A stretch of 64,000 nucleotides of DNA from an uncultured Gammaproteobacteria bacterium (GTDB lineage Bacteria > Patescibacteriota > Microgenomatia > Levybacterales > UBA12049): contig CAZERI010000001.1 of assembly GCA_964515545.1 (NCBI GenBank), positions 2,803 through 66,802 on the forward strand, written 5' to 3'. Shown here one piece after another: positions 44,309 through 64,000 of the stretch (its first letter is position 1; each line of letters begins with the position of its first letter). The translations under genes and the position numbers were made by a program. A model generated the notes under the pieces. It saw nothing but the letters and a program-made list of their open reading frames with translations. It made no database searches and was not told the DNA's origin.

Positions 44309-46600
44309 ATGTCCTTTTCTGCCCGATTACTACGCTTTCTTTGTGCTTTTATTTTATTCATTGCAGTAGCTCCTCTACCAGCTTTTGCTCAATCCGTTCA
44401 AACGCCTTTTCAACAATCTGAACAGACCTCTAAACAAATTCAAGTAATCCTGGTAGGATTTAGTGGAACCGCAATTTGTGCATTATCAGGAATCGATATT
44501 TTCCATCCAGGCTATAACTGTCTTGGACAAAAGATAATTAAGGATGGAACTACTCCCTCCTCACAAATTAACACCCAGCCTCTGGGAGCACTTGGACTTC
44601 TAACCAGCGGGATAGGAGCTCTCTATCAAAAGCCATTTAGCACTGAAGATTCTGTAAAGTATTTTGCTAATAATTTCGGCATCGCTAAAAAAACGTTAGC
44701 CCAAGGCCAACCAAGCACTAATCCTCAGGATGGAACTACGGGAGGTTTTCAATCATTTTCATTCGTCCAAGATATGTTCTTAACGCTAAGAAACATCAGC
44801 TTCCTTTCACTTGTATTCGTTTTTATTTTAATAGGAATTGCTATTATGCTCCGTTTTAAGATCGATCCTCGTACAGTCATGAGTCTCCAAAATCAAATTC
44901 CAAAAATTATTATCGGCATTCTCATGATCACTTTCTCTTTCTCCATTGCAGGGATATTGGTTGATGGAATGTGGATTGTGACCTATTTTGGAATAAATAC
45001 CATAGGAAGTATCGCTCAAAAGGATTGCACTGATGGGACAGATGGAACTACATTTGCCGGAGTTGCCACTCGACAGATTTTAAATAACCCTGTCGCCTTT
45101 ACCTCACATGTCTTCTCTGATGCTGGATGCTTTGGCACTCTTAGTGGGATAGGTGGTATATCAAAAGATATAGGATCTGCTATGAGCTCGGGAATTACTG
45201 ATGCCATACTCACCTCACTCAACTTTGATAATCAATCTGACCTAAACTGCGGAACAGGTTTAAAAATTGGGATTTTAGGAGGAAGTGGAAGTATTGGAGA
45301 CTGTATCCAAAAAGGAATTTACAGCTTTCTAACCTGGCTTATAAGTATTGTTGCATTTCTTATCGTCCTTATCGCCATTTTTGTAGCCCTTATTAGACTA
45401 TGGATAACGTTAGTGAAAGCATATGTGTATATCATCCTTGATGTTATCACCGCACCCCTTCAAATTTTGGTTGGTATACTTCCTGGTGGAAAAATGGGAT
45501 TTGGCAAGTGGTTCCGCCATATTACCGGCTACCTTCTCCTCTTCCCTGCCAGTGCTATACTTATTTTCCTTGCTTTAGCTTTTGCTCTCAATCCTGGACT
45601 GAAAGATCCCTCAAATACCACCGATACGTTTTTCCCTCCATTAATTGGCGTACCTGGCACATCAGGCAATTTAGGGGTTCTTGTCGCTTTTGGTCTTATT
45701 ATGATCTTGCCCGAAGCACTTGAAATGATTAAAGAAGCTTTGCAGATTAAGAGTAATAGTAGAGTCTCATCAGCAATTGTCGGCGGATTTGGCCGTGGAG
45801 TCGGCCCTGCGCAAGCACTTGGAGGAGTAGGAAGCGGACTCTTCGGTAAGGATAAGAATGGCAATCCTCAAGTTGGAAGACTTATTGCGGGACGTATCTG
45901 GACAAATAAAATGGGTCCCCAATCTGCCATGGGGAATAAACGCCCTATGAGCTGGTATTATCGAACCCGACGAGATTTTGATGATCGTAAGCGAAGACTC
46001 ATTAATGAAGACAGAGGAAATATTAGACAGCAAGCTGAACAGTATGCACAACATCAAGCACTTTATAACGGGAGAGACCGTACCGAGGCATTTACCGAGT
46101 TTATGGATAAGCATTACTATCAGAGGCAGTCGTCTCACCAGGCTAATCAAGCCACGAATAATAATCCTAATCAGCACGCCAATGCTGCTACCCCTGGCGC
46201 AGGGGGTTCTCCAGCACCTTCTACGGGAAGTCATCCTCACGGAGGAACTTCTACAGGCGGACATGGAGGAGCAGCTTCTAGCGGTACTACCCATACTCCA
46301 TCAGGAGCTTCGGGTACATCTGCCACTGGACACACGTCTTCACCTCCTACAGAATCTCCTCCAGTCGGAGGAGCTACGCCGGGAGCAGGAGATAACTCTC
46401 CTATTGCCCGCTTAAAAGTCAAGTGGTTTGGAAATGATCTTAAGTTTGAAGATGGAACTGGTACAGTATTTGCCCAAAAATCAGGTACTAGCTATAAAGT
46501 AGAGACCCCTACATCAACTGGCATTACTACCAAGTATCTGAGTCGATCAGACTTTAATCGCTGGCTAAGTGATCACAACTACGAAGAAGTCACCGCTTAA
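44309..46600 (+). CDS. polytopic membrane protein, VirB6/TrbL-like T4SS channel component candidate with Gly/Ser/Thr-rich C-terminal tail
   Basis: Signal peptide, then at least 5 long hydrophobic segments (e.g. IYSFLTWLISIVAFLIVLIAIFVALIRLWITLVKAYVYIILDVITAPLQILVGILPG). C-terminal 250 aa low-complexity (GGTSTGGHGGAASSGTTHTPSGASGTS). Confidence 0.55.
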   Translation: MSFSARLLRFLCAFILFIAVAPLPAFAQSVQTPFQQSEQTSKQIQVILVGFSGTAICALSGIDIFHPGYNCLGQKIIKDGTTPSSQINTQPLGALGLLTSGIGALYQKPFSTEDSVKYFANNFGIAKKTLAQGQPSTNPQDGTTGGFQSFSFVQDMFLTLRNISFLSLVFVFILIGIAIMLRFKIDPRTVMSLQNQIPKIIIGILMITFSFSIAGILVDGMWIVTYFGINTIGSIAQKDCTDGTDGTTFAGVATRQILNNPVAFTSHVFSDAGCFGTLSGIGGISKDIGSAMSSGITDAILTSLNFDNQSDLNCGTGLKIGILGGSGSIGDCIQKGIYSFLTWLISIVAFLIVLIAIFVALIRLWITLVKAYVYIILDVITAPLQILVGILPGGKMGFGKWFRHITGYLLLFPASAILIFLALAFALNPGLKDPSNTTDTFFPPLIGVPGTSGNLGVLVAFGLIMILPEALEMIKEALQIKSNSRVSSAIVGGFGRGVGPAQALGGVGSGLFGKDKNGNPQVGRLIAGRIWTNKMGPQSAMGNKRPMSWYYRTRRDFDDRKRRLINEDRGNIRQQAEQYAQHQALYNGRDRTEAFTEFMDKHYYQRQSSHQANQATNNNPNQHANAATPGAGGSPAPSTGSHPHGGTSTGGHGGAASSGTTHTPSGASGTSATGHTSSPPTESPPVGGATPGAGDNSPIARLKVKWFGNDLKFEDGTGTVFAQKSGTSYKVETPTSTGITTKYLSRSDFNRWLSDHNYEEVTA

Positions 46601-46613
46601 GGAGTAGATAGGC

Positions 46614-49388
46614 TTATTTAAGACTTTTTAAGAGGGCTTTAAAGAAGTTCTTCCCTGTACTTGCCGTCGTTTTAGCAACAGCTATTCCTCCATCTCTAAA
46701 GCCACGTCGCACCTCACCAACATTGGCGATACTGCGAAGCCACTTAATATCTTCTCTCGTAAAGAAGCGTCCTGGGATCACGGTATTTTTGAGATCATTT
46801 TCATCTACTAAAAGATCTCCTGGTATGATTTCAAGCGCCCTGATAACAGCCTCTATAGTCGCTCCATCCCATTTAGGATAGGGGCTATTGTGGTCGATAT
46901 GAGAATAAATATCTGCTGCTACTCTTCCTAAGGCTATTTGTTTGAACATCTGAATTCTTCCTTTATCTGTGTCTATTAGACGTGGATCTACGACATGATT
47001 GAGGACTTTCCCTGTCGGATTCCCATCTTTATCCTTTATTTCCTTACCATCCTTATCATACTGAGGCAGACGCATCCAGAACTGCTCCCGATCAATAAGC
47101 TCATGTCCGAACATAGAATCAGCAAGTGACATATCTGCAAATACATGAGGCGTACCATTCACATCAACCTGAGGAAGACCTTGATGGATCTTAGGATCAT
47201 ACTCAACGATATCTCTGACTTGCTTGCTATAAAGATTAGGCCACCCCTGATATCCATAACGGAGAGGCTTAAGGAATCCTTCCTGAATTTTTTGACCAAA
47301 AGATGCTGGATCGTAGAGTATCCCTCCAAATCGAGCCTGTTCAACTATTTTATCCAAATGCAACTCATCTGCTCCGATGAAGGACTTATATTCCTGTACC
47401 CAGCGAAAAATACCATTGTTGTAAAGGTTGACTTCACTCAGATCAGGGAATGTCAATTCACTAAGGATACGTCTGGATTCAGCAGTCTCTTCCTCAACCT
47501 TTCGCTCTTCAGCCTCTGTAAGAGTTCCCATACCATTTCTCTCATCAATTTCAAGTGCTGGAGGAGTAATACGGGCTAAATCTTCAATAATTTCGCGAAC
47601 TAGCTTCCCATCCTGATTACGAATCGAATCCAGGTAATTTACTCCCAACGTCTTAATGAGGCCGACATTGTACATGTTCCCAAACATCCCACCCTTGCTA
47701 GGGCCAGCTAATTTTTTCCGGTAATTTTGGAAACGAAGCCATTTCGCTTGAGCATCATAAGCAGTTCCTCCTAAATCGTTACGAGTTGCAATTCCTGTCC
47801 AGCGAGTTGTCAAAAATGCATAGTCTTCTGCCATCTCAGTGGTGTCTGTATCCATCACAAAGCCTCCATTCTCACGGAGGTATTCCCCATCTTTACCCCT
47901 CAGATACATGTGATACTTATGACCGATAGCGTCTTGGATCAGTCCCCGTACCATTCCTCTTACACGAGGATCTACCTGAGCTTGAGGGAAGATATTCATA
48001 TACTTAATGAATGCTTCTCTATTTTTTACTTTGCCGTCAGGGCCGAATATCGTATCTAAATTCGCATTAGAGATATATTTTTCCTCCAGGTGACCGAGAC
48101 TTTCTCCTGAAAATCTATTAGATTCATTTTCCTTACCAGCCAAATGTGAACGCACTCTTTCAAAGCCTTTTCGGGTAAAGAAGTCTGAATTCCCGCCTAT
48201 CATCTCTTGAAGCTTTTCATAATCTGCTAAGTGATAATATGCAGCGATAGCCGTAGCGATACTTTGTCCCATTCGGGTATCCTGCTTCTTATAATCTCTT
48301 ACATATTTTCTGTGCTCATGATGCCCCTCGCCTTCATGTCCCTGATGGGCTTGGAGAGTCTCTCCTTCATGAAGCGGTGGATCAAGTTTGGCTTTAGCCT
48401 CCATTGGCATTTCCAAAAGCCAATGCCACATACTTTTCCCATTCCAAGTATTACGAGTCATATTGTTGTCTTTGAAAATAGACTGCATCACTCCGTCTAT
48501 TCCGCCCTCATCACTCATACCCTTTCCACCTGTTCGGTAGGTAATATCACGACCGCGTACGATCATACGGACGAATAATTCACGACGAATTTGTTGGGCA
48601 AGCTCGGCATGAACTGCTCCATCCTGATCAGTAAAGAACTTCTCATCATCTTCGAGGATCTGACTCATGTGAATATGTCTATTACCAAAAGGGATACCTA
48701 CTTTAGCAAAGTAGTTGACTGGAGTATCTGGGCCATCCTCTCCCTCAAAAAAGACCATACGCTTACGAATCCAGCGCAGGAAATTAGCTTCATTAATGAC
48801 TGTTCTTTCACGTTCTTTTCCATCCTCATCTATATAAGTGCCTTCTTTTTTAAAAAGCGGGAACTTGTCCTGGAACTCCGGCTCATACTCAGCAATTGAA
48901 CGTACCAGCTCATTAATAGTATTTGGCTGCCTGTAAGATTTGTTTAGCTCCTTACGTTCTTTTGAGGTTAATTCATCATCATCTGCTAATGCTCTTCTTG
49001 GGTCTATAAACTGTCTATGGAGAGACTCAGGAGATTGTGCTCCAGAAGAAGCAGGATTTTCTAAGCGGGGTTCTACAAGACTTTGAAGAATTCTATTTCT
49101 TAGGAGTGCTTGTTCCTGAGGAGTAAGTTCACGACCAAGGTTTGCTTCCTGAGCAGCTCTCTCCTGACTCATGATCACATCAAGCATCTGCCTCATATTC
49201 TCCGTAGCTGGCTGTGGAGTAGACGGTGCTGCGCCTGTTAATTCATCAATTTCCCATGCGGGAATCTCTGGTGTAGGACTACTTGATGCCATAAATTCTC
49301 CTGTACCACTAGCATACGATCTATGAGGCTGTGAAGTCAACGCATCCCCCTCCCCTGGGACAAAGTTGTGAGGTCTATATTCTTTCAT
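46614..49388 (-). CDS. large (924 aa) soluble protein of unknown function
   Basis: Long ORF with coding-like composition, no TM and no motif I can assign. His-rich patch HQGHEGEGHHEHRK. Downstream of, and co-oriented with, the ATPase-wHTH gene. Confidence 0.65.
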   Translation of the reverse strand: MKEYRPHNFVPGEGDALTSQPHRSYASGTGEFMASSSPTPEIPAWEIDELTGAAPSTPQPATENMRQMLDVIMSQERAAQEANLGRELTPQEQALLRNRILQSLVEPRLENPASSGAQSPESLHRQFIDPRRALADDDELTSKERKELNKSYRQPNTINELVRSIAEYEPEFQDKFPLFKKEGTYIDEDGKERERTVINEANFLRWIRKRMVFFEGEDGPDTPVNYFAKVGIPFGNRHIHMSQILEDDEKFFTDQDGAVHAELAQQIRRELFVRMIVRGRDITYRTGGKGMSDEGGIDGVMQSIFKDNNMTRNTWNGKSMWHWLLEMPMEAKAKLDPPLHEGETLQAHQGHEGEGHHEHRKYVRDYKKQDTRMGQSIATAIAAYYHLADYEKLQEMIGGNSDFFTRKGFERVRSHLAGKENESNRFSGESLGHLEEKYISNANLDTIFGPDGKVKNREAFIKYMNIFPQAQVDPRVRGMVRGLIQDAIGHKYHMYLRGKDGEYLRENGGFVMDTDTTEMAEDYAFLTTRWTGIATRNDLGGTAYDAQAKWLRFQNYRKKLAGPSKGGMFGNMYNVGLIKTLGVNYLDSIRNQDGKLVREIIEDLARITPPALEIDERNGMGTLTEAEERKVEEETAESRRILSELTFPDLSEVNLYNNGIFRWVQEYKSFIGADELHLDKIVEQARFGGILYDPASFGQKIQEGFLKPLRYGYQGWPNLYSKQVRDIVEYDPKIHQGLPQVDVNGTPHVFADMSLADSMFGHELIDREQFWMRLPQYDKDGKEIKDKDGNPTGKVLNHVVDPRLIDTDKGRIQMFKQIALGRVAADIYSHIDHNSPYPKWDGATIEAVIRALEIIPGDLLVDENDLKNTVIPGRFFTREDIKWLRSIANVGEVRRGFRDGGIAVAKTTASTGKNFFKALLKSLK

Positions 49389-49457: not shown

Positions 49458-50771
49458 TTACTGACTAAATTTTACGCCTCTTCCTTTAAGAGTATGGAGA
49501 AAATGAGGATGAGTGGGGTTACTTTCTATTTTTCTTCTTAGTCTAAAAAGAAGCTGATCTATCGCCTGATCTGAAATCCCTTCACTTGATTTATCTTCTT
49601 TCCAAACGATATGGATGATAGTCTCTCTGTCTACTACCTCTCCGACGTGCTGGAGCAGATAACGGAAAAGTCTAAATTCCCCCTTCGTTAGATCATCTGA
49701 GAACACTACCTCTCCCCGCTTAATGGTATTGGTAGCCTCATCATAGACGAACTTAGCCTGATTTTGGCTGAATAGCCCTGCCTCTATGGCATCTTTAAAA
49801 AGAGGGAGGCAAAGCGTATTAGCCTTTACAAGACCTACTGCTTCTAAGTAAGGATTAGTACTAAAATCACCAGCCATGATGCTGGCCTGCTCCGAAGGAC
49901 TTAATTCCTGCCAAAGACTGATAAGTGCTGTCTGAAGTGTTTTTTGATTGAGTAAGAATTTAGATATATTATCCGGCATCTCCGAAAGGGTGATGAGTGC
50001 TTCAAGCGAAACAATTAAAAGCCTCATATGTCCTCCTGTTACATATATCAACTCTTCCTTTACTCGCTGGGGAACTTTCTTACCCACTAACTTCTCCAGA
50101 TAGCTAATCCGAAATTCACTACTCTCTCTGTCTAGTAGCGGAAGATAAATAGTATGTCCTACTACAAAGTCACTAAAAATAGATATGATCTGTGGTTCAA
50201 GCGTCTCCTCAAGTGGTCTTGCAACTGAAAAAATAGCTGCAAAACGATACTTAGCCTTATCTTGAAGTGAGCGGAGGAGGATAAAAAAACGGTCATTTAC
50301 CTGAGGAATATAATCATCGAAATTCTGGCAGAGAAAAATTACTGTTAACTTTTTTTCAATTGCCAAATACTCAATCGTATTTTTGAGATACTGAGCATAG
50401 ACCAGCTCATCGTTATAGGAAAGAGCATCTTTGAAAAGAGCGTCTGTTTTTTCATATTCTTCACTCATCTCCCGCTCGCGAAGAGAATTTAAAAGACACA
50501 AAAAAATATACTTCAAGATATCAGGATATGATCTTTGTCTTACTTCAGAAAAGTTAATCATGACAAAATGGACGATGCCATGATATTTAGGGAAATGCCT
50601 CAGCCTTACTGCCTTGTTATAAGCCAAAAGTCCTAATATATTTGATCTTCCCACCCCAGGCAGGCCAATGAGTTGAGAGGAATTCCCTTCTTTAATAAAG
50701 CTAACTGTCTTTTCAAGTTCGTTATCCCAGCTTTCCTCAGGATAAAGTGACTCGAAGTATTTTACTTCCAT
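49458..50771 (-). CDS. one-component regulator: N-terminal STAND/AAA-like P-loop NTPase fused to C-terminal OmpR/PhoB-type winged-helix DNA-binding domain
   Basis: P-loop IGLPGVGRSNILGLL. C-terminus LTKGEFRLFRYLLQHVGEVVDRETIIHIVWK...DQLLFRLRRKIE...LHTLKGRGVKF matches Trans_reg_C. Confidence 0.7.
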   Translation of the reverse strand: MEVKYFESLYPEESWDNELEKTVSFIKEGNSSQLIGLPGVGRSNILGLLAYNKAVRLRHFPKYHGIVHFVMINFSEVRQRSYPDILKYIFLCLLNSLREREMSEEYEKTDALFKDALSYNDELVYAQYLKNTIEYLAIEKKLTVIFLCQNFDDYIPQVNDRFFILLRSLQDKAKYRFAAIFSVARPLEETLEPQIISIFSDFVVGHTIYLPLLDRESSEFRISYLEKLVGKKVPQRVKEELIYVTGGHMRLLIVSLEALITLSEMPDNISKFLLNQKTLQTALISLWQELSPSEQASIMAGDFSTNPYLEAVGLVKANTLCLPLFKDAIEAGLFSQNQAKFVYDEATNTIKRGEVVFSDDLTKGEFRLFRYLLQHVGEVVDRETIIHIVWKEDKSSEGISDQAIDQLLFRLRRKIESNPTHPHFLHTLKGRGVKFSQ

Positions 50772-50849
50772 ACATAACTATTGTATGGCATCCTCCTAGG
50801 ATGTTCAAACCAACTTGCAAAGTAATCTCAAGCTATCTACTATGAATAT

Positions 50850-52760
50850 ATGCGCAAAGTTCTACTTTTATTGGTCTCCCTTTTCTTTAGCATTATTTAT
50901 CTTACTAACTCTACTATTGCAGAAGCAGATTCAGTCACAGTAGGCGACAATGCTACACTCACGTCGACCTTCCCCCTGTTTGATAATAATAAGGTTGTCA
51001 GCGACGTAGAGTTTGTCATAAATACATCATCTGACGGTAGTGGTACAGATCTTGACACAATCCGTTATCTTATTGGTGGAGATGGTTGTAAATTGCAGAA
51101 TTCAGAAACTCAAAATTTTAGCAATCTCAAATGCTATTTTAATAAAAGATACGCTCCTGATACCCAAGTTACGATTCAGCAAGATTTCCAAACAGGCTCA
51201 CTAACCCCCGACTCCTTCCCTACAACCTATTATTATTTTGTACGCAAGACAAATGGAGGACCTTATAGCCAAGTCATACCTCTAACCCTTAATCAACCTT
51301 CCGATGTTGCAAAAATCAACCTATCTGCATCAGGAGCTGTATGGGGCAAAAAGGGAACAATTACTCTAGGCAATCTCCCTAAGGCATTTTCTCAACAAAA
51401 AGCTACTATTACTATCCACCGAAACGCTGGCGGAATGGATGATAAGCACTTCTCAGTATTTGTCAACGGCGATAAGGAGAAGAGCAAGGCTATCTGCTCC
51501 AGTCCTTCAGGAGATGACATCTTTGCCTTTAATGATAAAGACTGTTCAGACGGTAAGTTTGTTGTTGATGTCAATTATCTGGTCTCTGTATTCCCACAGC
51601 CCGCAACAGTAGTTAATATCCCTGTTCCTCAAGCATCACTTCAGGATACCTATACACTCTCTCTTGCAGGACCTAATACTGCATCTACTACTCTCGTTGT
51701 ATTATATAGTCCAACTGGTGTAACTCTGGAGGCTAGTCAAACTTCGGTGACTACTGGGACAAAAGTTTCATTTACCGCAAGTGGTTGCCCTGATGGATCA
51801 AAGATTGATTTTGCTTATGGATCTGATACCTCAACAAAAGATGTCAAAGATGGTAAGGCAACTTTTGAAAAGACATTGGAGGGACAAGGCGGTGAAGCTT
51901 TTTCAGTTACTGCTACCTGCCAGGCAACCGGCAGAAGGTCAAATACTGTCTCTGTAACAATAGATAAGCCAGGTGAGGAAAGAACAGAAATTGATCCTCC
52001 TCTTCCTATCGCTGCTGATACCCCCTTCACCATCATTGTTCATGGTATGGAAAGTGATGGGCAATGCTACTTTATCGAAATAAAAGATGTGAACGCTGAT
52101 AAATATCTTGATCCTGGAAATAGGGACGCTCTCCTGGGGGGGGATTGTAGTAGTGGAGTAGATGATGGAGGCAAAAATCCCGCTTCAGTCACTCTCGGAG
52201 GGACAGCTCACCATACTGAGCAATTATATGACCTCTTTAAGTCCAATAATGATACTTATACTGTAACTTTTGATAAAGGTCTCCCTGATGGGGCATATCA
52301 ATTCAGACTTTATACATCCAACAAAGGGACCAGCCCCTGCTGGCCATATGACTGCCGAAATGAGGCTGATGACCCTCATCACTCTGCCGACCTTGATTTT
52401 ATTATTGGGAATGGGGAGTTTACAGCAATTGCTGCTCCCTCTCCTGCTTGCGGAGAGACCAACGACGTCGGAGAATGTACCTCTGTAAATACGGCTATCG
52501 GCCCGCTCCCAATCCAACTCTCAGAATTTACTAAGACTATTTTTTCTGTCCTTCTTAGTATCTCAGGCATTATCATACTCTACATTGTCATTCGTTCTGG
52601 CTATATCCTCCTCTTCTCCCAAGGAAATGCTGAGAAAGTAAAAGAAGCGCAAGATAGACTAACCTCTGCTGTTGTTGGCCTCCTCTTTCTCATCTTCTCC
52701 CTCATTGTCCTCCAGACTATAGGTGTTGATATACTCCATATACCTGGATTCGGCGCATGA
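50850..52760 (+). CDS. large secreted protein with C-terminal VirB2/TrbC-like pilin domain (pilin-fused adhesin/minor pilin candidate)
   Basis: Signal peptide. About 540-aa extracellular Cys-containing region. The C-terminus TIFSVLLSISGIIILYIVIRSGYILLFSQGNAEKVKEAQDRLTSAVVGLLFLIFSLIVLQTIG is homologous to the downstream pilin paralogs. Confidence 0.65.
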   Translation: MRKVLLLLVSLFFSIIYLTNSTIAEADSVTVGDNATLTSTFPLFDNNKVVSDVEFVINTSSDGSGTDLDTIRYLIGGDGCKLQNSETQNFSNLKCYFNKRYAPDTQVTIQQDFQTGSLTPDSFPTTYYYFVRKTNGGPYSQVIPLTLNQPSDVAKINLSASGAVWGKKGTITLGNLPKAFSQQKATITIHRNAGGMDDKHFSVFVNGDKEKSKAICSSPSGDDIFAFNDKDCSDGKFVVDVNYLVSVFPQPATVVNIPVPQASLQDTYTLSLAGPNTASTTLVVLYSPTGVTLEASQTSVTTGTKVSFTASGCPDGSKIDFAYGSDTSTKDVKDGKATFEKTLEGQGGEAFSVTATCQATGRRSNTVSVTIDKPGEERTEIDPPLPIAADTPFTIIVHGMESDGQCYFIEIKDVNADKYLDPGNRDALLGGDCSSGVDDGGKNPASVTLGGTAHHTEQLYDLFKSNNDTYTVTFDKGLPDGAYQFRLYTSNKGTSPCWPYDCRNEADDPHHSADLDFIIGNGEFTAIAAPSPACGETNDVGECTSVNTAIGPLPIQLSEFTKTIFSVLLSISGIIILYIVIRSGYILLFSQGNAEKVKEAQDRLTSAVVGLLFLIFSLIVLQTIGVDILHIPGFGA

Positions 52761-53086
52761 AAGACTTACTAGCACTTACTATTGGGACTACCCCTATTGA
52801 GGCCCCTAATGGAATCCCTACAGGAGGCCTGCCAAAAGCCTATGATATCGGCTCAAGTATCCTTCTGCTTATCTTTGTCGTTGCCATCCTCCTAGCCCTT
52901 GCTTTTATCATCTGGGGGAGTATCAGATGGATTATGTCAGGAGGAGATAAAACCAAAGTTCAAAGCGCCCGCAATACGCTTATTTATGCTGTGGTAGGGC
53001 TTATTTTTATTTTCCTTTCTTTCCTTATCATCAACCTCATCACGTACTTCTTCAACGTTCCTTCTGTCACTACTTTACCCCAGTAA
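52757..53086 (+). CDS. VirB2/TrbC-like T4SS pilin paralog 1
   Basis: Two hydrophobic helices separated by IWGSIRWIMSGGDKTKVQSARNTLIYAVVGL. Overlaps the upstream stop. Confidence 0.6.
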   Translation: MKDLLALTIGTTPIEAPNGIPTGGLPKAYDIGSSILLLIFVVAILLALAFIIWGSIRWIMSGGDKTKVQSARNTLIYAVVGLIFIFLSFLIINLITYFFNVPSVTTLPQ

Positions 53087-53131
53087 ATTTGCCTATTGAC
53101 AACTCTTTTAGACTCTGCCTAATATAGATAT

Positions 53132-53551: not shown

Positions 53552-53606
53552 TCTTCTGAGAAATCTTTTGTCTTGTTATTCTTTTTGTATTTGTTACTAT
53601 TAATAT

Positions 53607-53933: not shown

Positions 53934-53945
53934 GAGCTAGGTTAC

Positions 53946-54855: not shown

Positions 54856-54876
54856 ATATTTATCCAGCTGTGGAGA

Positions 54877-55236: not shown

Positions 55237-55237
55237 A

Positions 55238-58171: not shown

Positions 58172-59530
58172 TTGAAGTTACCTCTCTTTTCAAGTAAGAT
58201 TGATCCTATGGAAACCTCTGCCGAAACACCCATCACACCACCAGTGGAGGAGGTATCTCCACCTACTACAGGATCCTCTTCAGAGACACCTGACGAATCC
58301 CCTACCGATACGCCTGAAGGTGGAGCTGACACCTCAGAGAAGAAAAGAGATGTAAGCTCTGAACAACAAAGACGCGAGTTAGGATATGTAGCCGATACTC
58401 TGCGAAATAGAAAAATAGAAGCTGCTCTTGCCAAGCTAGAAACCGGCGAGTCTCTGAGCGAGGGAGAAAAAAAACTTATTGGACTTCATAATTTAGTTAC
58501 TAAAGAAGAGGGAGACTATACAAGCGAGGGTGCTGAAGGGGTGGATAACAGCATTCCCTTTACAGAGGGTAAGCCTGTCTTTATTGAGGTCAGCTCAGGG
58601 GTAAAACGTCAGCTTCTTTCGATTACAGGACGGCACACAACAGCAGATAATCAATCCTATTTTTCCTGCCAATTCAAAGCTGTCGACGAAGGGACAATCT
58701 TTGGGAGAGACATCCCTGTAAGTGAGGTCATAAAAGCACAATATCTTTCTGAAGCAGCAGTGATTGCCCAGGATTTTACGCCCGCAGAGCAGCAGCTTCT
58801 CAATCTCCACAACGATATTCTCCGCGATGGCGAATCTGCGCTAACATCACAAAAGACAGAAGAGATAAATGAACTTATTACTAACGTTTCTGAGGAGCAA
58901 GGGATCATCACATCAGGAGATATTGTCGGCCTTCTGGACTCTCAAGCTGAGACTATTCCCCCCGAACAACAGGCACAACTCCAACAGGCTCGAGCAGCAC
59001 TTGAGAAGATGAATGTTATAACAGATGGATCGCAAATGGCTGAAGTACTGACTACTCTTGGCATTAGCCAAGAAGGCTTAGCTACTGAAACGAGTAAGGT
59101 ATCTGAAGAACTCCAACAACTTCAAGAGCAATTAGCCAAAACCCCAGACGATGAAGCACTCAAAGAACAACTTACTAAGAAGCAAAAGTACCTAGAAACT
59201 ATGCAATCCATCCAAGAACAAGTCGCTTCGGGGCTAGACTTTAGCAAATACTTCGAAAACGTTAGAACAGGAAAAGTAACACCTGAACAGCGTCAAGCCT
59301 TAGCTGAAGCTATGCGTAAAGGAGATATCCAAGGAATGCTTGCTGCTATGCCCGAATTCGCTGATGATCCAACTGATACTCCCGAAGAAAAAGCAGAAAA
59401 AGAAGCCCAAAGAAAGGCATTGGCTGAAAGGATGGCCACTGGCGGGCTTATAGGCCTGGGAGCCATCCTCGGTATCATGTGGCAAGTCGTCTCTGTTGAA
59501 TCCAAAGAACTCAAGAAATCCCTGAGATAA
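58172..59530 (+). CDS. acidic coiled-coil protein with C-terminal TM anchor, unknown function
   Basis: E/Q-rich, PT-rich N-terminus. C-terminal GGLIGLGAILGIMWQVVSV. Divergent from the 972-aa gene with a 15-bp gap. Confidence 0.5.
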   Translation: MKLPLFSSKIDPMETSAETPITPPVEEVSPPTTGSSSETPDESPTDTPEGGADTSEKKRDVSSEQQRRELGYVADTLRNRKIEAALAKLETGESLSEGEKKLIGLHNLVTKEEGDYTSEGAEGVDNSIPFTEGKPVFIEVSSGVKRQLLSITGRHTTADNQSYFSCQFKAVDEGTIFGRDIPVSEVIKAQYLSEAAVIAQDFTPAEQQLLNLHNDILRDGESALTSQKTEEINELITNVSEEQGIITSGDIVGLLDSQAETIPPEQQAQLQQARAALEKMNVITDGSQMAEVLTTLGISQEGLATETSKVSEELQQLQEQLAKTPDDEALKEQLTKKQKYLETMQSIQEQVASGLDFSKYFENVRTGKVTPEQRQALAEAMRKGDIQGMLAAMPEFADDPTDTPEEKAEKEAQRKALAERMATGGLIGLGAILGIMWQVVSVESKELKKSLR

Positions 59531-59647: not shown

Positions 59648-60868
59648 ATGGAAAATCATCCTATCCCACAAGATGTAACAGGATTTCAGTTTAAGCTTAT
59701 CGGCAATATGACGGTAAAGCAGTTTGCCTACTTAGCAGCTGGAGGAGTCATTGCCGTCCTCTTTTACTATCTGCCTGTTTTTATTCTCCTTAAGCTGGTA
59801 ATCATGGTCTTAGGCGGAGGGTTAGGGGCTGCCCTTGCCTTTCTTCCTGTTGAGGGACGTCCACTAGATCTTATGATTACCAATTTCATTCGAGATCTCT
59901 TTGCCCCCACTCAATATATGTACCATAAAGAGGGAGGCATGCTGGCTATTTCCATGATTTCTCTCACACCACCCAAACCCGAAAAAAAAACTACCTCTCA
60001 AAAAAAGAAAACTGAAGATAAGCAGTTTGAACGCGAGGTTAAACTTAATGAGTTTCTTAGTCATTTAGCAAAAAGTGCCCACACTAAATTAGATGAGAGA
60101 GAAGATCTGTACTTATCGGCTATCTTTAACCCTAATGCTACTCCGCAGTTAGTCTCTCTTTTTGAACAAAAGGCAGCTGCCGGACACGAGTTATCAGACG
60201 AGGAAGCTCTCCGCGTGAAGATGATCCAGTCCCCTGAGGATATGGAGCATCAGCTGGAGAGAGAATCCGAAGCTATCAAACAGGAACTTGCCTTAGCGGT
60301 AAAAGAAGAACAAACACTTCAAGAGAAGCACCAATCAACTGCTGAGGTGCATGTCCATGTCGGAGATCTGGAAAAACAACTCCAAGACATGCTCCAACAG
60401 AAGCAGCAGCTCGAACAGGAACTTTTAAAGCTGAAAGGACAACAGCCAGTAAATCCTCCTCAAAACCAAGAAACACCCTCTCAGAAGCCTGCTACTCAGG
60501 ATTCCCAAAATGTACGCGTTGTTCCCACTGACAAAGCATCCAGCATCGGACTTCCTGCAGTGCCTGATGTTCCTAATATCGTCCTAGGAATTGTTAAAGA
60601 TCCAAGGGGAAATGTTCTCTCGGGAATTCTCGTTGAGATTCGTGATAAAGACGGCAGTCCCGTCCGCGCATTTAAGACAAATGGTCTTGGCCAATTTGCC
60701 TCAGCCACCCCCCTGAGTAATGGAGTCTATACAGTAGAATTTGAAGACCCTAAAGGCAAGCAGCAATTTGAAGTCGTACAAATTGAAGCGAAAGGAGAGA
60801 TAATGCTGCCTCTTGAGATTATTTCTCATGACGCCAGAGAGCAACTAAGAAAAGAGCTTTTTAACTAA
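59648..60868 (+). CDS. membrane protein with N-terminal 2-TM domain (VirB3/PrgI-like position and topology), central coiled coil and C-terminal beta domain
   Basis: FKLIGNMTVKQFAYLAAGGVIAVLFYYLPVFILLKLVIMVLGGGLGAALAFLPV. Located two genes upstream of virB4. Confidence 0.5.
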   Translation: MENHPIPQDVTGFQFKLIGNMTVKQFAYLAAGGVIAVLFYYLPVFILLKLVIMVLGGGLGAALAFLPVEGRPLDLMITNFIRDLFAPTQYMYHKEGGMLAISMISLTPPKPEKKTTSQKKKTEDKQFEREVKLNEFLSHLAKSAHTKLDEREDLYLSAIFNPNATPQLVSLFEQKAAAGHELSDEEALRVKMIQSPEDMEHQLERESEAIKQELALAVKEEQTLQEKHQSTAEVHVHVGDLEKQLQDMLQQKQQLEQELLKLKGQQPVNPPQNQETPSQKPATQDSQNVRVVPTDKASSIGLPAVPDVPNIVLGIVKDPRGNVLSGILVEIRDKDGSPVRAFKTNGLGQFASATPLSNGVYTVEFEDPKGKQQFEVVQIEAKGEIMLPLEIISHDAREQLRKELFN

Positions 60869-60874
60869 ATCTTT

Positions 60875-61534
60875 ATGAAAACATCTGCCCAGAAAAATCA
60901 CAATTCAACCCAAAAATTCACTGAGATTGTTGATATCGTTGATGATATCGTTCTCTTCTCAGGAGGAACTGCCGGCATTGTTATTGAGATTACTGCCAGT
61001 AACTTTGCCCTTCTTTCTAAAAAAGAACAGGATGCTAAAATCTATGCCTATGCCTCTCTTCTCAATTCGCTTACGTTCCCTATCCAAATTATCATTCGTA
61101 ACAAACGTATGGATATCAGCTCATACTTAAAGGATCTCGAGGAGCAGGAACTAGGAACAAAAAATGATCTTCTGGCTCGTCACATCGCTATGTATCGTGA
61201 CTTTGTCCGCGAGATGGTAAAAGTTAATGTAGTTTTAAATAAAGCCTTCTATGTCGTCATAGGATTTTCTTCTCTCGAGGCAGGCCTAAGCGGAGTAAAA
61301 TCACAAGTGGCTAGAAATGAAGTCGAAAAAGAAGCATTTGTCACTGCAGCTCAGAAGGCGTTATATAACAAAGCTGATTCTGTCCATCAACAGCTTGGCA
61401 AGCTGGCTGTGACTGCCAAAACACTTGAGAAGGAAGAGCTCATTAAACTCTTCTATGATATTTTTAATGATGCTCCTATCCAAGGTACCCAGGCTGATTC
61501 AGATATTAATACGCCTTTAATAAAACCTGCCTAA
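60875..61534 (+). CDS. hypothetical cytoplasmic protein immediately upstream of virB4
   Basis: 219-aa ORF, coupled to the VirB4 start (1-nt gap). Confidence 0.5.
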   Translation: MKTSAQKNHNSTQKFTEIVDIVDDIVLFSGGTAGIVIEITASNFALLSKKEQDAKIYAYASLLNSLTFPIQIIIRNKRMDISSYLKDLEEQELGTKNDLLARHIAMYRDFVREMVKVNVVLNKAFYVVIGFSSLEAGLSGVKSQVARNEVEKEAFVTAAQKALYNKADSVHQQLGKLAVTAKTLEKEELIKLFYDIFNDAPIQGTQADSDINTPLIKPA

Positions 61535-61535
61535 T

Positions 61536-63623
61536 ATGGGATTATTTAATAAAAAACAGCCAGTACCTCAGCCAGCAGCCCAGACTGGAACACCTGCTGT
61601 GCCTTCCACCCAACCGACAGCAGCCTCGAGTGTTAAAGCAACAAAAAGTTCTACACCTCAGGCAAATGGTATTCAAAAACTTGAGAAGGGCATGATGTCA
61701 CTTGTTGATCTCATTGCTCCTTCCTCAGTTGAGGTAGATTTCCGTTACATCAGGGTGGGAGAGAAATTTTATTCGACATTGTTTATCGTCGGCTATCCCC
61801 GTTTTGTCTCACCAAACTGGCTGCAGCCTATTATTGACTACGACCATACGTTGGATATCTCCATGTTTTGTTATCCTACTCAATCAGGGGATGTTCTCTC
61901 AGATCTCCGGCGTAAAATTGCTGAGATGGAAGCAACCATTATGTCTGATGAGGAGAATGGCAAACCAGCTAATCCTACTGTCCAAGCAGCACTTGAGGAC
62001 GCTCTGGCTCTCCAGGAAGAATTAGCAAAAGGTGTAGAGAGATTTTTTCAGTTTAGCTTCTATATCAACCTCTCAGCAGATAGTGTCGGTGAGTTAGAGG
62101 AAGCAACCAAGCAACTCCGGACAACTCTCGCCTCTCTTCTTCTCACAGCCAAGACAGCTACACTCCAGATGGAAGAGGGCTTTAAATCAAGTATTCCTAT
62201 GGCCCAGGATCGCCTTTTTATTACCAGAAATATGGATACTACTTCCCTTGCCTCAACTTTCCCTTTCACATCCGCTGTACTGACACAAAATAAGGGCGTG
62301 ATGTATGGAGTCAACCAGCAGAATGGCTCTCTTATTATCTTTGATCGTTTCTCCCTAGAGAACGCCAATGAGGTAGTACTCGGTAAATCTGGAGCCGGAA
62401 AATCTTATCTTATTAAGCTTGAGATCATGCGTCAATTTATGTTAGGAACTGAGGTTATTGTGGTAGATCCAGAAGGTGAGTATGAGACATTGGTGGGAGA
62501 ATTAGGTGGAGAGATCGTAGAATTCTCATCTGCCTCCCCTATCAAAATTAATCCTTTTGATCTCTCTCAACTCTATGAACCAGGAGAAAATGAATTAGGG
62601 CTTAAGATTCTCTCTCTCCATGGACTCATGAAACTAATTATGGGAACCTTAGATGCTGAACACGATGCAATCCTTGATAGAGCGTTAGTTGAGACATATC
62701 ATCAGAAAGGCATTACCCCCGATCCTGCTACTCAAAAACTAACTCCACCACTTCTTGAGGATCTTTATAAGACTCTTCTCGGTATGGAGACTCAAGCAGG
62801 TAAAGAAATGGCATTTCAGCTTGAAAAATTTATTAAAGGAAGTGCCTCAGGTATTTTTAACCAAGCCTCAAATTTCGATATCACAAATCCCTTAACTGTA
62901 TTTAATATTAAAAATCTTGAGGAAGAGTTACGCCCTATTGCCATGCATATTATTCTTGATTTCGTCTGGACAAAGGTTAAGAAATCTCTTAAAAAGCGAC
63001 TCCTCGTTTTAGACGAAGCGTGGTATATGATGAAGTTTGAAGACTCAGCTTCATTTGTCTACTCTATTGCCAAGAGAGCACGTAAATATTACTTGGGACT
63101 TACTACCGCGACACAAGACGTAGAAGACTTCCTCAAAACGGATTATGGTAAAGCAGTTCTTACTAATTCATCTATCCAAATTCTTCTTAAGCAGGGAACT
63201 GCTGAGGTTGATTTAGTGGGAGAAACCTTTTACTTATCAGAAGGCGAGCGTGAACTCCTCCTTTCTGCGGATATTGGAGAAGGACTCTTCTTTGCCGGAC
63301 AAAATCACGTAGCACTCAAGGTACTTGGTGCCCCATTTGAACATGATCTTATTACTTCCAACCCAGAGGAGCTTATCCATAATCAGCAGCCTCTCTCTCA
63401 AGAGGTGCAGACTCCCGTGCCTGAAACTACTCTCCCTGATGGAATTCCAGACAATACGACTCCACCCCTACCTGTCCCTGATCAGTCAGTACCTGTAGCA
63501 GCACCGGAAACTCCTGCTACGCCTGCTGCTCCTCCATCATCAAACGTATCAGGAGAGACTCCGCCTCCAGCCAACAACCCTTCCTTAAATGGAATTCCTA
63601 CCCCTTCAAATCAGGTTCAATAA
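61536..63623 (+). CDS. virB4: type IV secretion ATPase VirB4/TrbE family
   Basis: Walker A VVLGKSGAGKSYLIK, VVVDPEGEY, Walker B LLVLDEAWYMM, RKYYLGLTTATQ. 695 aa with PT-rich C-tail. Confidence 0.9.
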   Translation: MGLFNKKQPVPQPAAQTGTPAVPSTQPTAASSVKATKSSTPQANGIQKLEKGMMSLVDLIAPSSVEVDFRYIRVGEKFYSTLFIVGYPRFVSPNWLQPIIDYDHTLDISMFCYPTQSGDVLSDLRRKIAEMEATIMSDEENGKPANPTVQAALEDALALQEELAKGVERFFQFSFYINLSADSVGELEEATKQLRTTLASLLLTAKTATLQMEEGFKSSIPMAQDRLFITRNMDTTSLASTFPFTSAVLTQNKGVMYGVNQQNGSLIIFDRFSLENANEVVLGKSGAGKSYLIKLEIMRQFMLGTEVIVVDPEGEYETLVGELGGEIVEFSSASPIKINPFDLSQLYEPGENELGLKILSLHGLMKLIMGTLDAEHDAILDRALVETYHQKGITPDPATQKLTPPLLEDLYKTLLGMETQAGKEMAFQLEKFIKGSASGIFNQASNFDITNPLTVFNIKNLEEELRPIAMHIILDFVWTKVKKSLKKRLLVLDEAWYMMKFEDSASFVYSIAKRARKYYLGLTTATQDVEDFLKTDYGKAVLTNSSIQILLKQGTAEVDLVGETFYLSEGERELLLSADIGEGLFFAGQNHVALKVLGAPFEHDLITSNPEELIHNQQPLSQEVQTPVPETTLPDGIPDNTTPPLPVPDQSVPVAAPETPATPAAPPSSNVSGETPPPANNPSLNGIPTPSNQVQ

Positions 63624-63659
63624 CCATGATTTGTGCTAAGATAGAGCTACTTACTGCCT

Positions 63660-64000
63660 ATGGTTGATGATACTCTGCCACCAGAAAATGATATCCCTCA
63701 AGAAGATCAACCTGATCTTAATAACCCTGATGATCAGGATCATGAACAAAGCCACTCGTCTCGTCCCTCTCCAAAAAAGACCTACGACCAGCTTAAAAAC
63801 CTAAAAAACCTGCGAGGGACACCTAAGCCTCCTTTAGGAACACCAGCTCCGACAGCCGGAGTAGGATCTGCTGCTGCTGGAGAAGGAGCCACGGCAGGAA
63901 CTGGAGTAGCGGGAAGTACTGGTACTGGTGCTGCTGCTACAAGTGCAGGAACGGCTGCAGGAAGTACAGGCGCTGCAGCCTCAGGTGCCGGAGCTGCAGC
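63660..64000 (+). CDS. partial ORF, acidic N-terminus then Gly/Ala/Thr-rich low-complexity region (continues beyond window)
   Basis: ATG at 63660. Open to window end: MVDDTLPPENDIPQED...GTPAPTAGVGSAAAGEGATAGTG. Confidence 0.4.
   Translation, partial: MVDDTLPPENDIPQEDQPDLNNPDDQDHEQSHSSRPSPKKTYDQLKNLKNLRGTPKPPLGTPAPTAGVGSAAAGEGATAGTGVAGSTGTGAAATSAGTAAGSTGAAASGAGAA

What the first reader, a model, noticed from the sequence alone, without database searches (positions are those of the whole stretch)
44309..64000. Type IV secretion / conjugative-pilus-like locus dominated by proteins of unknown function
About 20 kb encode a VirB6/TrbL-like polytopic protein, four tandem VirB2/TrbC-like pilins, a pilin-fused giant secreted protein, a VirB3/PrgI-like membrane protein, VirB4 and a dedicated ATPase-wHTH regulator. 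A VirD4-type coupling ATPase sits 32 kb away at 10108..12465. Half of the locus is giant proteins with no detectable domains (924, 972 and 452 aa). No relaxase, VirB11 or VirB9/10 homolog is recognisable, and the host looks like a reduced-genome (CPR-like) bacterium. That combination suggests a surface appendage or host-interaction machine rather than a classical conjugation system. The unknown large proteins are candidates for novel structural or effector components.
Basis: partly seen in the sequence, partly recalled or inferred. Interest (0 to 1): 0.8.

Follow-up and report, generated by a model that had tools for sequence, protein, structure and literature searches.

The report
Patescibacterial type IV secretion locus
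This is the chromosomal type IV secretion system that ultra-small Patescibacteria (here a Levybacterium) carry next to their replication origin; the kind is already described in the literature, its role is still unknown, and only some of the large "unknown" genes in it turn out to be conserved parts of it.

Summary
Window 44309-64000 holds a divergent VirB6/TrbL-like protein, a P-loop/wHTH regulator and a 636-aa pilin fusion. It also holds four VirB2-type pilins, a PrgI/VirB3-like protein, a separate TrsD-like ORF and a VirB4 ATPase. A VirD4-type coupling protein lies at 10108-12465. I found no relaxase, VirB9/10 or VirB11.

The locus continues about 5.7 kb past the window. That stretch holds bitopic membrane proteins and an Amidase_2 hydrolase, and it ends at dnaN-dnaA.

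The closest relatives are Levybacteria (Microgenomatia) genomes. This is the Patescibacteria-type, MPF-FATA-derived T4SS already published (Wang 2023; Quinonero-Coronel 2025). Those papers describe the pilin arrays, the missing relaxase, the distant T4CP and the origin-proximal position. So it is a new member of a known kind.

The analysis here adds the following:
- The 924-aa protein belongs to a conserved, domain-less family of about 308 cluster representatives. It sits beside the regulator and the VirB6-like gene in 17 of 19 assessable relatives.
- The 972-aa, 452-aa and two small paralogous genes form a 5.2-kb lineage-specific insertion. None of them was found in any of the 35 related genomes.
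- No known fold was found for either giant protein.

Function remains inferred: host interaction rather than conjugation.

The parts
44309..46600 (+). 763-aa polytopic membrane protein, a divergent VirB6/TrbL-like protein. It has a signal peptide, about 8 TM segments and a low-complexity G/S/T/H-rich C-terminal tail.
   Evidence: TM profile. No direct Pfam or NCBIfam hit. Among 40 homologues, 8 match PF04610 TrbL, best E 5.6e-08, and no other family is matched. Conserved upstream of the g924 family in relatives.
46614..49388 (-). 924-aa conserved protein of unknown fold ('g924 family'). It has no signal peptide, no TM segment and no Cys. The protein is acidic with a basic amphipathic C-terminal helix (GKNFFKALLKSLK).
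49458..50771 (-). 437-aa regulator. The N-terminal domain is P-loop-like, with a conserved GxPGVxRS motif (Lys replaced by Arg). The C-terminal domain is an OmpR/PhoB-type winged helix. There is no receiver domain.
   Evidence: PF00486 at 57.5 bits over residues 360-434. PDB hits cover only the wHTH. The motif is conserved in 21 homologues. The gene lies head to head with the pilin operon and directly upstream of g924 on the same strand.
50850..52760 (+). 636-aa pilin fusion. It has a signal peptide, a Cys/Thr/Ser-rich extracellular region of about 530 aa and a C-terminal VirB2-type two-helix pilin domain.
   Evidence: PF18895 at 23.1 bits over residues 557-623, below the cut-off of 26.6. NF045849 pilin-like, E 5e-4. 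Matched by the pilin HMM built here. Comparable fusions of 356-411 aa occur only in the four closest loci, L007, L008, L011 and L012.
52757..54473 (+). Array of four VirB2/TrbC-type pilin genes at 52757-53086, 53132-53551, 53607-53933 and 53946-54473.
   Evidence: All four match PF18895 at or above the cut-off. Pilins 2 and 4 are 74% identical. The other pairs are 21-44% identical. Most relatives carry three pilins.
54487..55287 (-). Two small paralogous helical proteins (122 aa and about 119-136 aa) downstream of the 972-aa gene. They are lineage-specific.
   Evidence: The paralogues are 32% identical, E 4e-18. No family hit. Absent from the 35 relatives. Present with g972 in its four known contexts.
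55238..58156 (-). 972-aa lineage-specific, all-helical coiled-coil protein. It has a glycine zipper (8 GxxxG motifs in residues 208-252), no signal peptide and no Cys.
   Evidence: Only 4 clusters among 5.8 billion proteins, at 58-100% identity. Always in the same slot. dN/dS is 0.16 against a sister strain, so it is a real gene under purifying selection. Strain differences concentrate in 56501-57000. The AF2 model is poor (pLDDT 54). No fold match. Glycine zipper.
58172..59530 (+). 452-aa (or 440-aa) very acidic helical protein with a single C-terminal TM anchor. Lineage-specific.
   Evidence: TM at residues 422-440 and net charge -34. No family hit. No homologue in the 35 relatives. 63% identical in L042.
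59648..60868 (+). 406-aa PrgI/VirB3-like membrane protein with a long C-terminal extension that ends in a CarboxypepD_reg-like beta-sandwich.
   Evidence: PF12666 at 37.9 bits over residues 5-91. PF13620 at 30.3 bits, below its cut-off. Present in 33 of 35 relatives directly upstream of trsD-virB4.
60875..61534 (+). 219-aa TrsD-like protein, homologous to the N-terminal domain of VirB4 and encoded as a separate ORF (TAA stop at 61532-61534; ATG at 61536).
   Evidence: Precomputed PF26593 TraC-like hit. Weak hits to TraC_F_IV, the VirB4_plasma N-terminal region and TrsD. Sequence at the junction. Present in 33 of 35 relatives.
61536..63623 (+). 695-aa VirB4 ATPase of the MPF-FATA (CD1110/CTn2-like) type.
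   Evidence: NF045971 at 388.5 bits against a cut-off of 325. PF19044 at 92.6 bits. PDB 4ag5 at E 7e-43. Walker A GKSGAGKS and Walker B LLVLDE.
63660..64000 (+). Start of a 455-aa bitopic protein, cut by the window end. Beyond the window lie genes for proteins of 528, 161 and 166 aa (the last PEGA-like), a 473-aa secreted Amidase_2 hydrolase and a 216-aa protein. dnaN, dnaA, rpmH, rnpA and yidC follow.
   Evidence: L001 gene table. Pfam on the L001 ORFs. The same layout is seen in relatives: one large bitopic protein followed by 2-6 small proteins with an N-terminal TM.
10108..12465 (-). 785-aa VirD4/TraD-type coupling protein (T4CP), 32 kb from the locus. It lies next to tRNA-Ile(TAT) and a Xer-type tyrosine recombinase (9127-9987).
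   Evidence: PF10412, PF02534 and PF12696 all above their cut-offs. Walker A GKTGTGKS. tRNA. Not within +-10 kb of virB4 in any of the 35 relatives.

Best explanation
**What it is.** The locus is the chromosomal, origin-proximal type IV secretion system typical of Patescibacteria, here in a Levybacterium (class Microgenomatia). It is not a conjugative element.

**Inferred working model, from the parts.**
- A VirB4 ATPase, with its N-domain supplied as a separate TrsD-like protein, docks on a PrgI/VirB3-like protein and a divergent VirB6-like polytopic protein in the single membrane.
- Bitopic proteins and a secreted Amidase_2 hydrolase encoded downstream of virB4 open and span the wall.
- Four VirB2-type pilins, plus one pilin carrying a 530-aa extracellular domain, are polymerised into a surface filament or conduit that contacts the host cell.
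- A P-loop/wHTH regulator, transcribed divergently from the pilin operon, controls expression.
- Its downstream gene, the conserved 924-aa protein, is a cytoplasmic partner. Its basic amphipathic C-terminal helix suggests that it is attached to the membrane.

**Cargo.** It is most likely protein effectors or host-derived molecules, not self-DNA, because no relaxase is present.

**The insertion.** The block of the 972-aa, 452-aa and two small genes is a lineage-specific insertion between the pilin array and prgI. It is accessory cargo, possibly a membrane-active substrate with helper proteins. It is not core machinery.

**Shown and inferred.** Shown: gene identities, synteny, conservation and chromosomal context. 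Inferred: pilus formation, the direction and nature of transport, and the roles of g924 and g972.
For: **Identity of the parts.**

**Taxon.** The 35 loci with VirB4 at 66-85% identity are mostly Levybacteria or Patescibacteria MAGs, including complete chromosomes of 1.1-1.6 Mb.

**Chromosomal context.**
- dnaN-dnaA-rpmH-rnpA-yidC lie directly downstream.
- The rest of the window is housekeeping: purine salvage, RNR, PBPs, SmpB/tmRNA and tRNAs.
- GC content is even across the window.

**Conserved order in relatives.** VirB6-like, g924 family, regulator, pilins, prgI, trsD, virB4, bitopic proteins, dnaN.

**The insertion.**
- g972, g452, g122 and g136 have no homologue in the 35 relatives. The pilin-to-prgI gap is 91-230 nt in 26 of the 32 assessable loci.
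- g972 exists in only 4 protein clusters worldwide.
- It is nevertheless under purifying selection.

**Literature.**
- The same architecture is essential for epibiotic growth of S. epibionticum. It has a pilin array and no relaxase or T4CP in the cluster (PMC10633639; its Tables S1 and S2 read).
- The Patescibacteria VirB4 clade is sister to MPF-FATA. TrsD, PrgI and VirB2 arrays, dnaA proximity and the scarcity of VirB6 hits in Microgenomatia are described (PMC12102498).
Against: - No experiment exists for any Microgenomatia T4SS.
- A pilus has not been seen for this system in any Patescibacterium, as far as the papers I read state.
- A T4CP is encoded in the genome (10108-12465). DNA transfer or uptake therefore cannot be excluded.
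- An unrecognisable relaxase could hide among the unknowns, for example the 467-aa zinc-ribbon protein next to the T4CP, or g924 itself.
- The VirB6 assignment is transitive only.
- The ATPase motif of the regulator has Arg in place of the catalytic Lys.
- Neither giant protein gave a usable structural match, so their assigned roles are positional inference.
Confidence: 0.75

Rival explanations
1. It is an import machine. The T4SS takes up DNA, RNA or nucleotides from the host cell or the medium, as the H. pylori ComB system and the archaeal Ced system do. This would feed a bacterium that cannot make nucleotides de novo.
For: VirB4 and the T4CP give weak hits to CedB and CedD DNA-import ATPases. 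The comF-like gene at 41412-42101 flanks the locus, as it does in S. epibionticum. The window carries purine salvage and RNR genes rather than de novo synthesis genes. The idea is raised in PMC11665869.
Against: The Ced hits are far below their cut-offs and reflect the shared ATPase fold. In S. epibionticum comEC is dispensable while the T4SS is essential (PMC12857230). Nothing in this locus resembles ComB- or Ced-specific parts. The direction of transport cannot be read from sequence.
Confidence: 0.15
2. It is a degenerate or unconventional conjugative element (ICE). The relaxase is too divergent to be recognised, and the distant T4CP and the tyrosine recombinase at 9127-12465 are its remaining parts.
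For: The T4CP sits beside a tRNA gene and a Phage_integrase-family recombinase. Two adjacent unknown genes (174 and 467 aa, the latter with a zinc ribbon) could hide a DNA-processing function. The VirB4 belongs to a family built on conjugative elements.
Against: The locus lies between a tRNA cluster and dnaN/dnaA. It holds the same chromosomal place in 22-24 of the 35 related genomes. Composition is uniform. No repeats flank it. About 32 kb of housekeeping genes separate it from the T4CP. No relaxase family was hit in any ORF scanned. The recombinase has the Xer-type SAM-like plus catalytic architecture. Relaxases are rare across Patescibacteria (PMC12102498).
Confidence: 0.05
3. It is an adhesive filament only. 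The VirB4-driven machine assembles a multi-pilin fibre, with the 636-aa fusion as adhesin, for host attachment. No substrate is translocated.
For: There are five pilin-domain genes, including one with a large Cys-rich extracellular domain. The pilin paralogues are diversified. No T4CP lies in the cluster.
Against: Patescibacteria already use type IV pili for attachment and motility (PMC12206443, PMC11665869). The VirB6-like channel component is retained, and so is a PG hydrolase. In Gram-negative systems VirB2 is needed for transfer as well as for the pilus (PMC12857230).
Confidence: 0.05

Closest known systems
T4SS of Ca. Southlakia epibionticum ML1 (SEML1_0006-0019; Saccharimonadia), Wang et al. 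2023
   Same: It lies next to dnaA/dnaN. It has a VirB4 with a separate upstream N-domain-like ORF, a PrgI-family protein, VirB6-like protein(s) and a tandem array of PF18895 pilins. Cell-wall hydrolases and small exported PEGA-like proteins lie downstream of virB4. There is no relaxase or T4CP in the cluster. Even the far flank is shared: Hsp20, a comF-like gene and tRNA-Ser.
   Different: ML1 has two extended VirB6-like proteins of about 1000 aa and an NTF2-like protein between the pilins and prgI. It has lysozyme-like and DD-peptidase hydrolases instead of Amidase_2. It has six pilins and no pilin fusion. It has no counterpart of the P-loop/wHTH regulator plus the 924-aa protein, and none of the g972 cassette. 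The two organisms belong to different classes.
MPF-FATA conjugative T4SSs of monoderms (pGO1 TrsD/TrsE, pCF10 PrgH-I-J-K-L, CTn2 CD1110)
   Same: The VirB4 family is the same (NF045971, above its cut-off). A TrsD-like split N-domain, PrgI/VirB3, a VirB6-like protein, a wall hydrolase and bitopic proteins downstream of virB4 are shared. The VirB7/9/10 outer-membrane core is absent.
   Different: Those systems sit on plasmids or ICEs with a relaxase, an oriT and an adjacent T4CP, and they use adhesins rather than VirB2 pilins. This one is chromosomal at the origin, has a pilin array, and has no relaxase.
Effector-translocating T4SSs with VirB2 paralogue arrays (Bartonella, Anaplasma)
   Same: Tandem, sequence-diverged VirB2 genes within a host-interaction T4SS.
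   Different: Those are diderm MPF-T systems with a full VirB1-11 set. The resemblance is functional analogy only and is recalled from the discussion in PMC12102498.

Membership tests
Patescibacteria-type T4SS (Wang 2023; Quinonero-Coronel 2025) | VirB4 of MPF-FATA affinity | tested here: met
   NF045971 CD1110 family, 388.5 bits against a cut-off of 325. Best PDB match is the Firmicute VirB4 4ag5, E 7e-43.
Patescibacteria-type T4SS (Wang 2023; Quinonero-Coronel 2025) | VirB4 falls inside the monophyletic Patescibacteria clade | not tested
   No phylogeny was made. Indirect evidence: all 35 genome hits at 66-85% identity are CPR-type MAGs, mostly Levybacteria. Several carry placeholder or mismatched taxon names.
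Patescibacteria-type T4SS (Wang 2023; Quinonero-Coronel 2025) | TrsD-like ORF and PrgI/VirB3-like gene adjacent to virB4 | tested here: met
   Conserved in 33 of 35 relatives.
Patescibacteria-type T4SS (Wang 2023; Quinonero-Coronel 2025) | VirB2-like pilin array near virB4 in a monoderm-type system | tested here: met
   Four PF18895 hits at or above the cut-off, plus one fusion.
Patescibacteria-type T4SS (Wang 2023; Quinonero-Coronel 2025) | No relaxase near virB4; T4CP absent from the cluster | tested here: met
   No relaxase family in any scanned ORF of the 64-kb window or the 6-kb extension. The T4CP lies 32 kb away. Two ORFs at 1177-2749 were not scanned.
Patescibacteria-type T4SS (Wang 2023; Quinonero-Coronel 2025) | Chromosomal position near dnaA/dnaN | tested here: met
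   On L001, dnaN starts about 6.1 kb after virB4. The same holds in 22-24 of the 35 relatives.
Patescibacteria-type T4SS (Wang 2023; Quinonero-Coronel 2025) | Required for epibiotic growth | not testable with these tools
   Known only from Tn-seq in S. epibionticum (PMC10633639).
Conjugative element (ICE or plasmid MPF module) | Relaxase, oriT and an adjacent T4CP | tested here: not met
   No relaxase hit. The T4CP is 32 kb away, with housekeeping genes in between. oriT cannot be recognised without a relaxase family.
Conjugative element (ICE or plasmid MPF module) | Marks of an insertion: flanking repeats, deviant composition, variable chromosomal site | tested here: not met
   Even GC content. 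No flanking repeats around the internal insertion. The same chromosomal site in relatives.
TrbL/VirB6 (PF04610), for the 763-aa protein | Match to the family profile | tested here: inconclusive
   The window protein itself has no hit at E<=0.01. Of its 40 homologues, 8 match PF04610, best E 5.6e-08, and no other family is matched. The profile search against the PDB found nothing significant.
TrbL/VirB6 (PF04610), for the 763-aa protein | Polytopic membrane protein with 5 or more TM helices, encoded in a T4SS locus | tested here: met
   About 8 hydrophobic segments plus a signal peptide. Synteny.
OmpR/PhoB response regulators, for the 437-aa protein | C-terminal winged-helix DNA-binding domain | tested here: met
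   PF00486 at 57.5 bits. PDB WalR, YycF and OmpR effector domains.
OmpR/PhoB response regulators, for the 437-aa protein | N-terminal phospho-receiver domain | tested here: not met
   No Response_reg hit. Residues 1-340 carry a P-loop-like motif instead. It is therefore not a two-component response regulator.

The most novel reading that the evidence does not exclude
Two untested readings remain open.

(a) The 924-aa protein defines a new, Microgenomatia-wide family with an unrecognised fold. In this reading it is a cytoplasmic T4SS component tethered to the membrane by its C-terminal helix. It is co-transcribed with the regulator. It takes the substrate-recruiting role that the absent in-cluster coupling protein plays elsewhere, or it is itself the conserved substrate.

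(b) The slot between the pilin array and prgI is an exchangeable cargo site. In this lineage it holds a fast-evolving 972-aa glycine-zipper coiled-coil protein, two small paralogous helpers and a tail-anchored acidic protein. Sister lineages hold unrelated proteins of 683 and 684 aa there, each with a hydrophobic segment. These would be host-specific, membrane-active effectors delivered by the T4SS to open the host envelope.
Probability: 0.25. Interest if true: 0.6.

Novelty: new member of a known kind. Interest (0 to 1): 0.33.

Why it matters
The role of the Patescibacteria T4SS is an acknowledged open question. PMC11665869 calls it 'completely unknown', and the system is essential in the one species tested.

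This window does not answer that question. It does give a clean Microgenomatia example and sorts its dark genes into three groups:
- a conserved core set (VirB6-like protein, g924 family, regulator, pilins, PrgI, TrsD, VirB4, bitopic proteins, hydrolase);
- a lineage-specific cassette (the g972, g452, g122 and g136 genes);
- a clade-limited pilin fusion.

This tells experimenters which unknowns to pursue as machine parts and which as candidate cargo. It also recovers the VirB6-like component that profile searches reported as scarce in Microgenomatia.

Tried and rejected

**Structure of the 972-aa protein.** Only 4 homologues exist. The AF2 model was poor (pLDDT 54), so its Foldseek hits to SMC/Rad50-type coiled coils are meaningless.

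**afdb50 library.** It was not available.

**Paralogy of g924 and g972.** Rejected. The best BLASTP E-value was 0.049 over 47 residues.

**Orthology of g972 with the 683-aa and 684-aa proteins in the same slot of L007 and L008.** No similarity was found, between them and g972 or between the two of them. hhalign of the small neighbouring proteins was also negative.

**Defence-system or phage origin of the insertion.** No PADLOC or PHROGs hits and no flanking repeats.

**Hidden relaxase next to the T4CP.** The 467-aa protein has no Pfam or PDB match. This remains unresolved.

**Promoter and terminator scan.** Counts equal chance expectation, so operon structure rests on gene spacing only.

**Taxon names for distant g924-family members.** The sources give none.

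**An inconsistent figure.** The whole-overlap identity of 97.6%, 25 does not fit the roughly 86 differences counted in 500-nt bins. I did not resolve this; an indel offset is the likely cause. I rely on the per-gene and per-bin counts.


Full report
**1. What is in the sequence**

Family scans identify the following genes:
- Four small genes at 52757-54473 are PF18895 T4SS pilins, all at or above the gathering score.
- The 636-aa ORF is a signal-peptide protein that ends in the same pilin domain. It scores 23.1 bits, just under the cut-off, and is matched by a pilin HMM built here.
- ORF 59648-60868 has an N-terminal PrgI (VirB3-like) domain.
- ORF 61536-63623 is a VirB4. It scores 388.5 bits on NCBIfam NF045971 (CD1110 family, cut-off 325). 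It matches the Firmicute VirB4 structure 4ag5 at E 7e-43. It has intact Walker A and B motifs.
It is a TrsD-like relative of the VirB4 N-domain. It is separated from virB4 by a TAA stop and a single base.
- The 437-aa protein has an OmpR/PhoB-type winged helix at its C-terminus.
- Its N-terminal 340 residues carry only a Walker-A-like motif, GxPGVxRS, with Arg in place of Lys. The motif is conserved in 21 homologues. 'ATPase' is therefore unproven.
- The 785-aa protein at 10108-12465 is a VirD4/TraD-type coupling protein.
- The 924, 972 and 452-aa proteins match nothing in Pfam, NCBIfam, PADLOC or PHROGs.

**2. Extent and context**

An identical VirB4 is found on public contigs that extend past the window. 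Downstream of virB4 they encode:
- a 455-aa bitopic protein;
- a 528-aa protein;
- three small proteins with an N-terminal TM segment (161, 166 and 216 aa; the 166-aa one is PEGA-like);
- a secreted 473-aa Amidase_2 hydrolase.

These are followed by dnaN, dnaA, rpmH, rnpA and yidC. The locus is therefore about 25 kb long and abuts the replication origin.

The remainder of the window is housekeeping. It holds:
- purine salvage genes;
- a B12-dependent RNR with NrdR;
- GAPDH;
- two class A PBPs;
- SpoIID;
- SmpB and tmRNA;
- a comF-like gene;
- Hsp20;
- nine tRNAs.

GC content is even across the window. No relaxase, VirB9/10 or VirB11 family was hit anywhere.

**3. Whose genome**

A scan of one genome per species with VirB4 returned 35 loci at 66-85% identity. 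Most are labelled Candidatus Levybacteria/Levyibacteriota or 'Patescibacteria group'. They include complete chromosomes of 1.1-1.6 Mb. The host is a Levybacterium (Microgenomatia).

**4. Conserved and variable genes**

I used tblastn and HMM searches of the window proteins against these loci.

The conserved order is:
VirB6-like (+), g924 family (-), regulator (-), pilin array (+), prgI, trsD, virB4, one large bitopic protein, 2-6 small bitopic proteins, dnaN, dnaA.

The 763-aa protein:
- It has no direct TrbL hit.
- 8 of its 40 homologues match PF04610, and no other family appears.
- It has a signal peptide and about 8 TM segments.
- It is thus the divergent VirB6 that a published survey found scarce in Microgenomatia.

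The 924-aa protein:
- It has 308 cluster representatives among 1.84 billion proteins.
- It sits next to the regulator in 17 of 19 assessable relatives. The other two have a 1126-aa or >=1670-aa ORF in the same place and orientation.
- It recurs with a VirB6-like gene, a regulator and a pilin fusion in a distant genome (L046).
- It lacks a signal peptide, TM segments and Cys. It is acidic, and it ends in a basic amphipathic helix.
- Its model (pLDDT 66) matches no solved fold.

The 972, 452, 122 and 136-aa genes:
- They have no homologue in any of the 35 loci.
- The gap between the last pilin and prgI is 91-230 nt in 26 of the 32 assessable loci, and 5.2 kb here.
- g972 occurs in only four protein clusters among 5.8 billion, always in this slot with the same neighbours.
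- At 85% VirB4 identity it is already down to 58%.
- Genomes with VirB4 at 79-82% identity carry mutually unrelated proteins of 683 and 684 aa on the minus strand in that slot.
- g972 is nevertheless a real gene. Against a sister strain its dN/dS is 0.16.
- Its synonymous divergence (0.057) is 4-27 times that of the adjacent core genes. The differences pile up in 56501-57000. This suggests recombination or local hypervariability.
- It is predicted to be all-helical with long coiled coils.
- It carries a glycine zipper of eight GxxxG motifs at residues 208-252.
- g122 and g136 are paralogues.
- g452 is a very acidic tail-anchored protein.

The pilin fusion occurs only in the window's closest clade. 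Pilins 2 and 4 are a recent duplication, at 74% identity.

**5. How it probably works**

The parts fit a monoderm T4SS.
- VirB4, with TrsD, sits on PrgI/VirB3 and VirB6 in the membrane.
- Bitopic proteins and a wall hydrolase provide passage through the envelope.
- VirB2-type pilins, unusual for monoderms, form a filament or conduit.
- The fusion protein is a plausible adhesin-bearing minor pilin.
- The regulator lies head to head with the pilin operon across 78 bp that contain a palindrome.
- The regulator precedes g924 on the same strand, so g924 is probably co-expressed with it.

With no relaxase and with the T4CP 32 kb away, self-DNA export is unlikely. Protein or effector delivery to the host cell, or import of host molecules, is the likely role. 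All of this paragraph is inference from gene content and from what is known of the homologous families.

**6. Comparison with what is known**

This is the system described for Saccharibacteria and surveyed across Patescibacteria.
- In S. epibionticum ML1 the cluster SEML1_0006-0019 lies beside dnaA.
- It contains VirB4, an upstream N-domain-like ORF, PrgI, VirB6-like proteins, six pilins and hydrolases.
- It lacks a relaxase and a T4CP, and it is essential for epibiotic growth (PMC10633639).
- Even its far flank (Hsp20, a comF-like gene, tRNA-Ser) matches window 41412-44240.

The 2025 survey (PMC12102498) reports:
- the Patescibacteria VirB4 clade sister to MPF-FATA;
- TrsD and PrgI homologues;
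- VirB2 arrays of 2-11 genes, especially in Microgenomatia and Saccharimonadia;
- the rarity of relaxases;
- T4CPs far from virB4;
- proximity to dnaA/dnaN.

Reviews call the function unknown (PMC11665869, PMC12857230).

**7. Verdict**

This is a new member of a known kind. The modest additions are these:
- recognition of the divergent VirB6;
- the conserved module of regulator plus the g924 family, with no known fold;
- the finding that the 972, 452, 122 and 136-aa genes are a lineage-specific cassette rather than core machinery.

Interest is 0.33.

Noticed in passing
window 41412-44240: The flank of the T4SS locus holds a comF-like gene (Pribosyltran plus double zinc ribbon), tRNA-Ser and Hsp20. 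A cluster of four tRNA-Ser and two tRNA-Arg genes follows. The Hsp20, comF-like and tRNA-Ser part matches the flank of the pilin array in S. epibionticum ML1 (SEML1_0020-0022). This suggests very old synteny across two Patescibacteria classes.
   Followed up: partly
window 9127-14606: The T4CP gene ends one base from tRNA-Ile(TAT) and lies next to a Xer-type tyrosine recombinase. Upstream of it are two unknown genes. One encodes a Pro/Gln-rich 174-aa protein. The other encodes a 467-aa protein with a C-terminal zinc ribbon (CPTC...CMKC) and no Pfam or PDB match. They could be T4CP partners or remnants of an integrated element.
   Followed up: partly
window 56501-57000 (within the 972-aa gene): 34 of about 86 nucleotide differences between the window and a sister-strain contig (L001) over about 9.7 kb fall in this 500-nt bin. 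Synonymous divergence of g972, g136 and g122 (0.04-0.06) is 3-29 times that of g452, prgI, trsD and virB4. This points to a recombination tract or a hypervariable segment.
   Followed up: partly
window 50789-50803: The palindrome CATCCTCCTAGGATG lies in the 78-bp region between the divergently transcribed regulator and the pilin-fusion gene. It is a candidate operator. I did not compare it across relatives.
   Followed up: no
window 14760-19387: A class II (B12-dependent) ribonucleotide reductase with a TSCPD domain, together with NrdR, sits beside cobalamin adenosyltransferase, DUF6580 and DUF4430 genes. This looks like a compact cobalamin-salvage plus RNR unit.
   Followed up: no
L012 2536-7606; L026 1340-2035; L028 7187-7897; L036 2224-2907: Other relatives also have insertions at or near the same place. 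L012 has about 5 kb inside its pilin array. Three loci have a homologous 227-236-aa membrane protein with about 6 TM segments on the minus strand between the pilins and prgI. The junction appears to tolerate gene insertion repeatedly.
   Followed up: partly
L015, L034, L035, L037, L038: A second sub-architecture exists among the relatives. It has a single pilin before prgI. It has no regulator, g924-family or VirB6-like hit within 10 kb upstream. A plus-strand ORF of about 730 aa precedes the pilin instead.
   Followed up: no
window 8296-8370 and 8577-8645: Two tRNA-Met(CAT) genes lie on opposite strands about 200 nt apart, next to a DivIC/FtsB-like gene.
   Followed up: no
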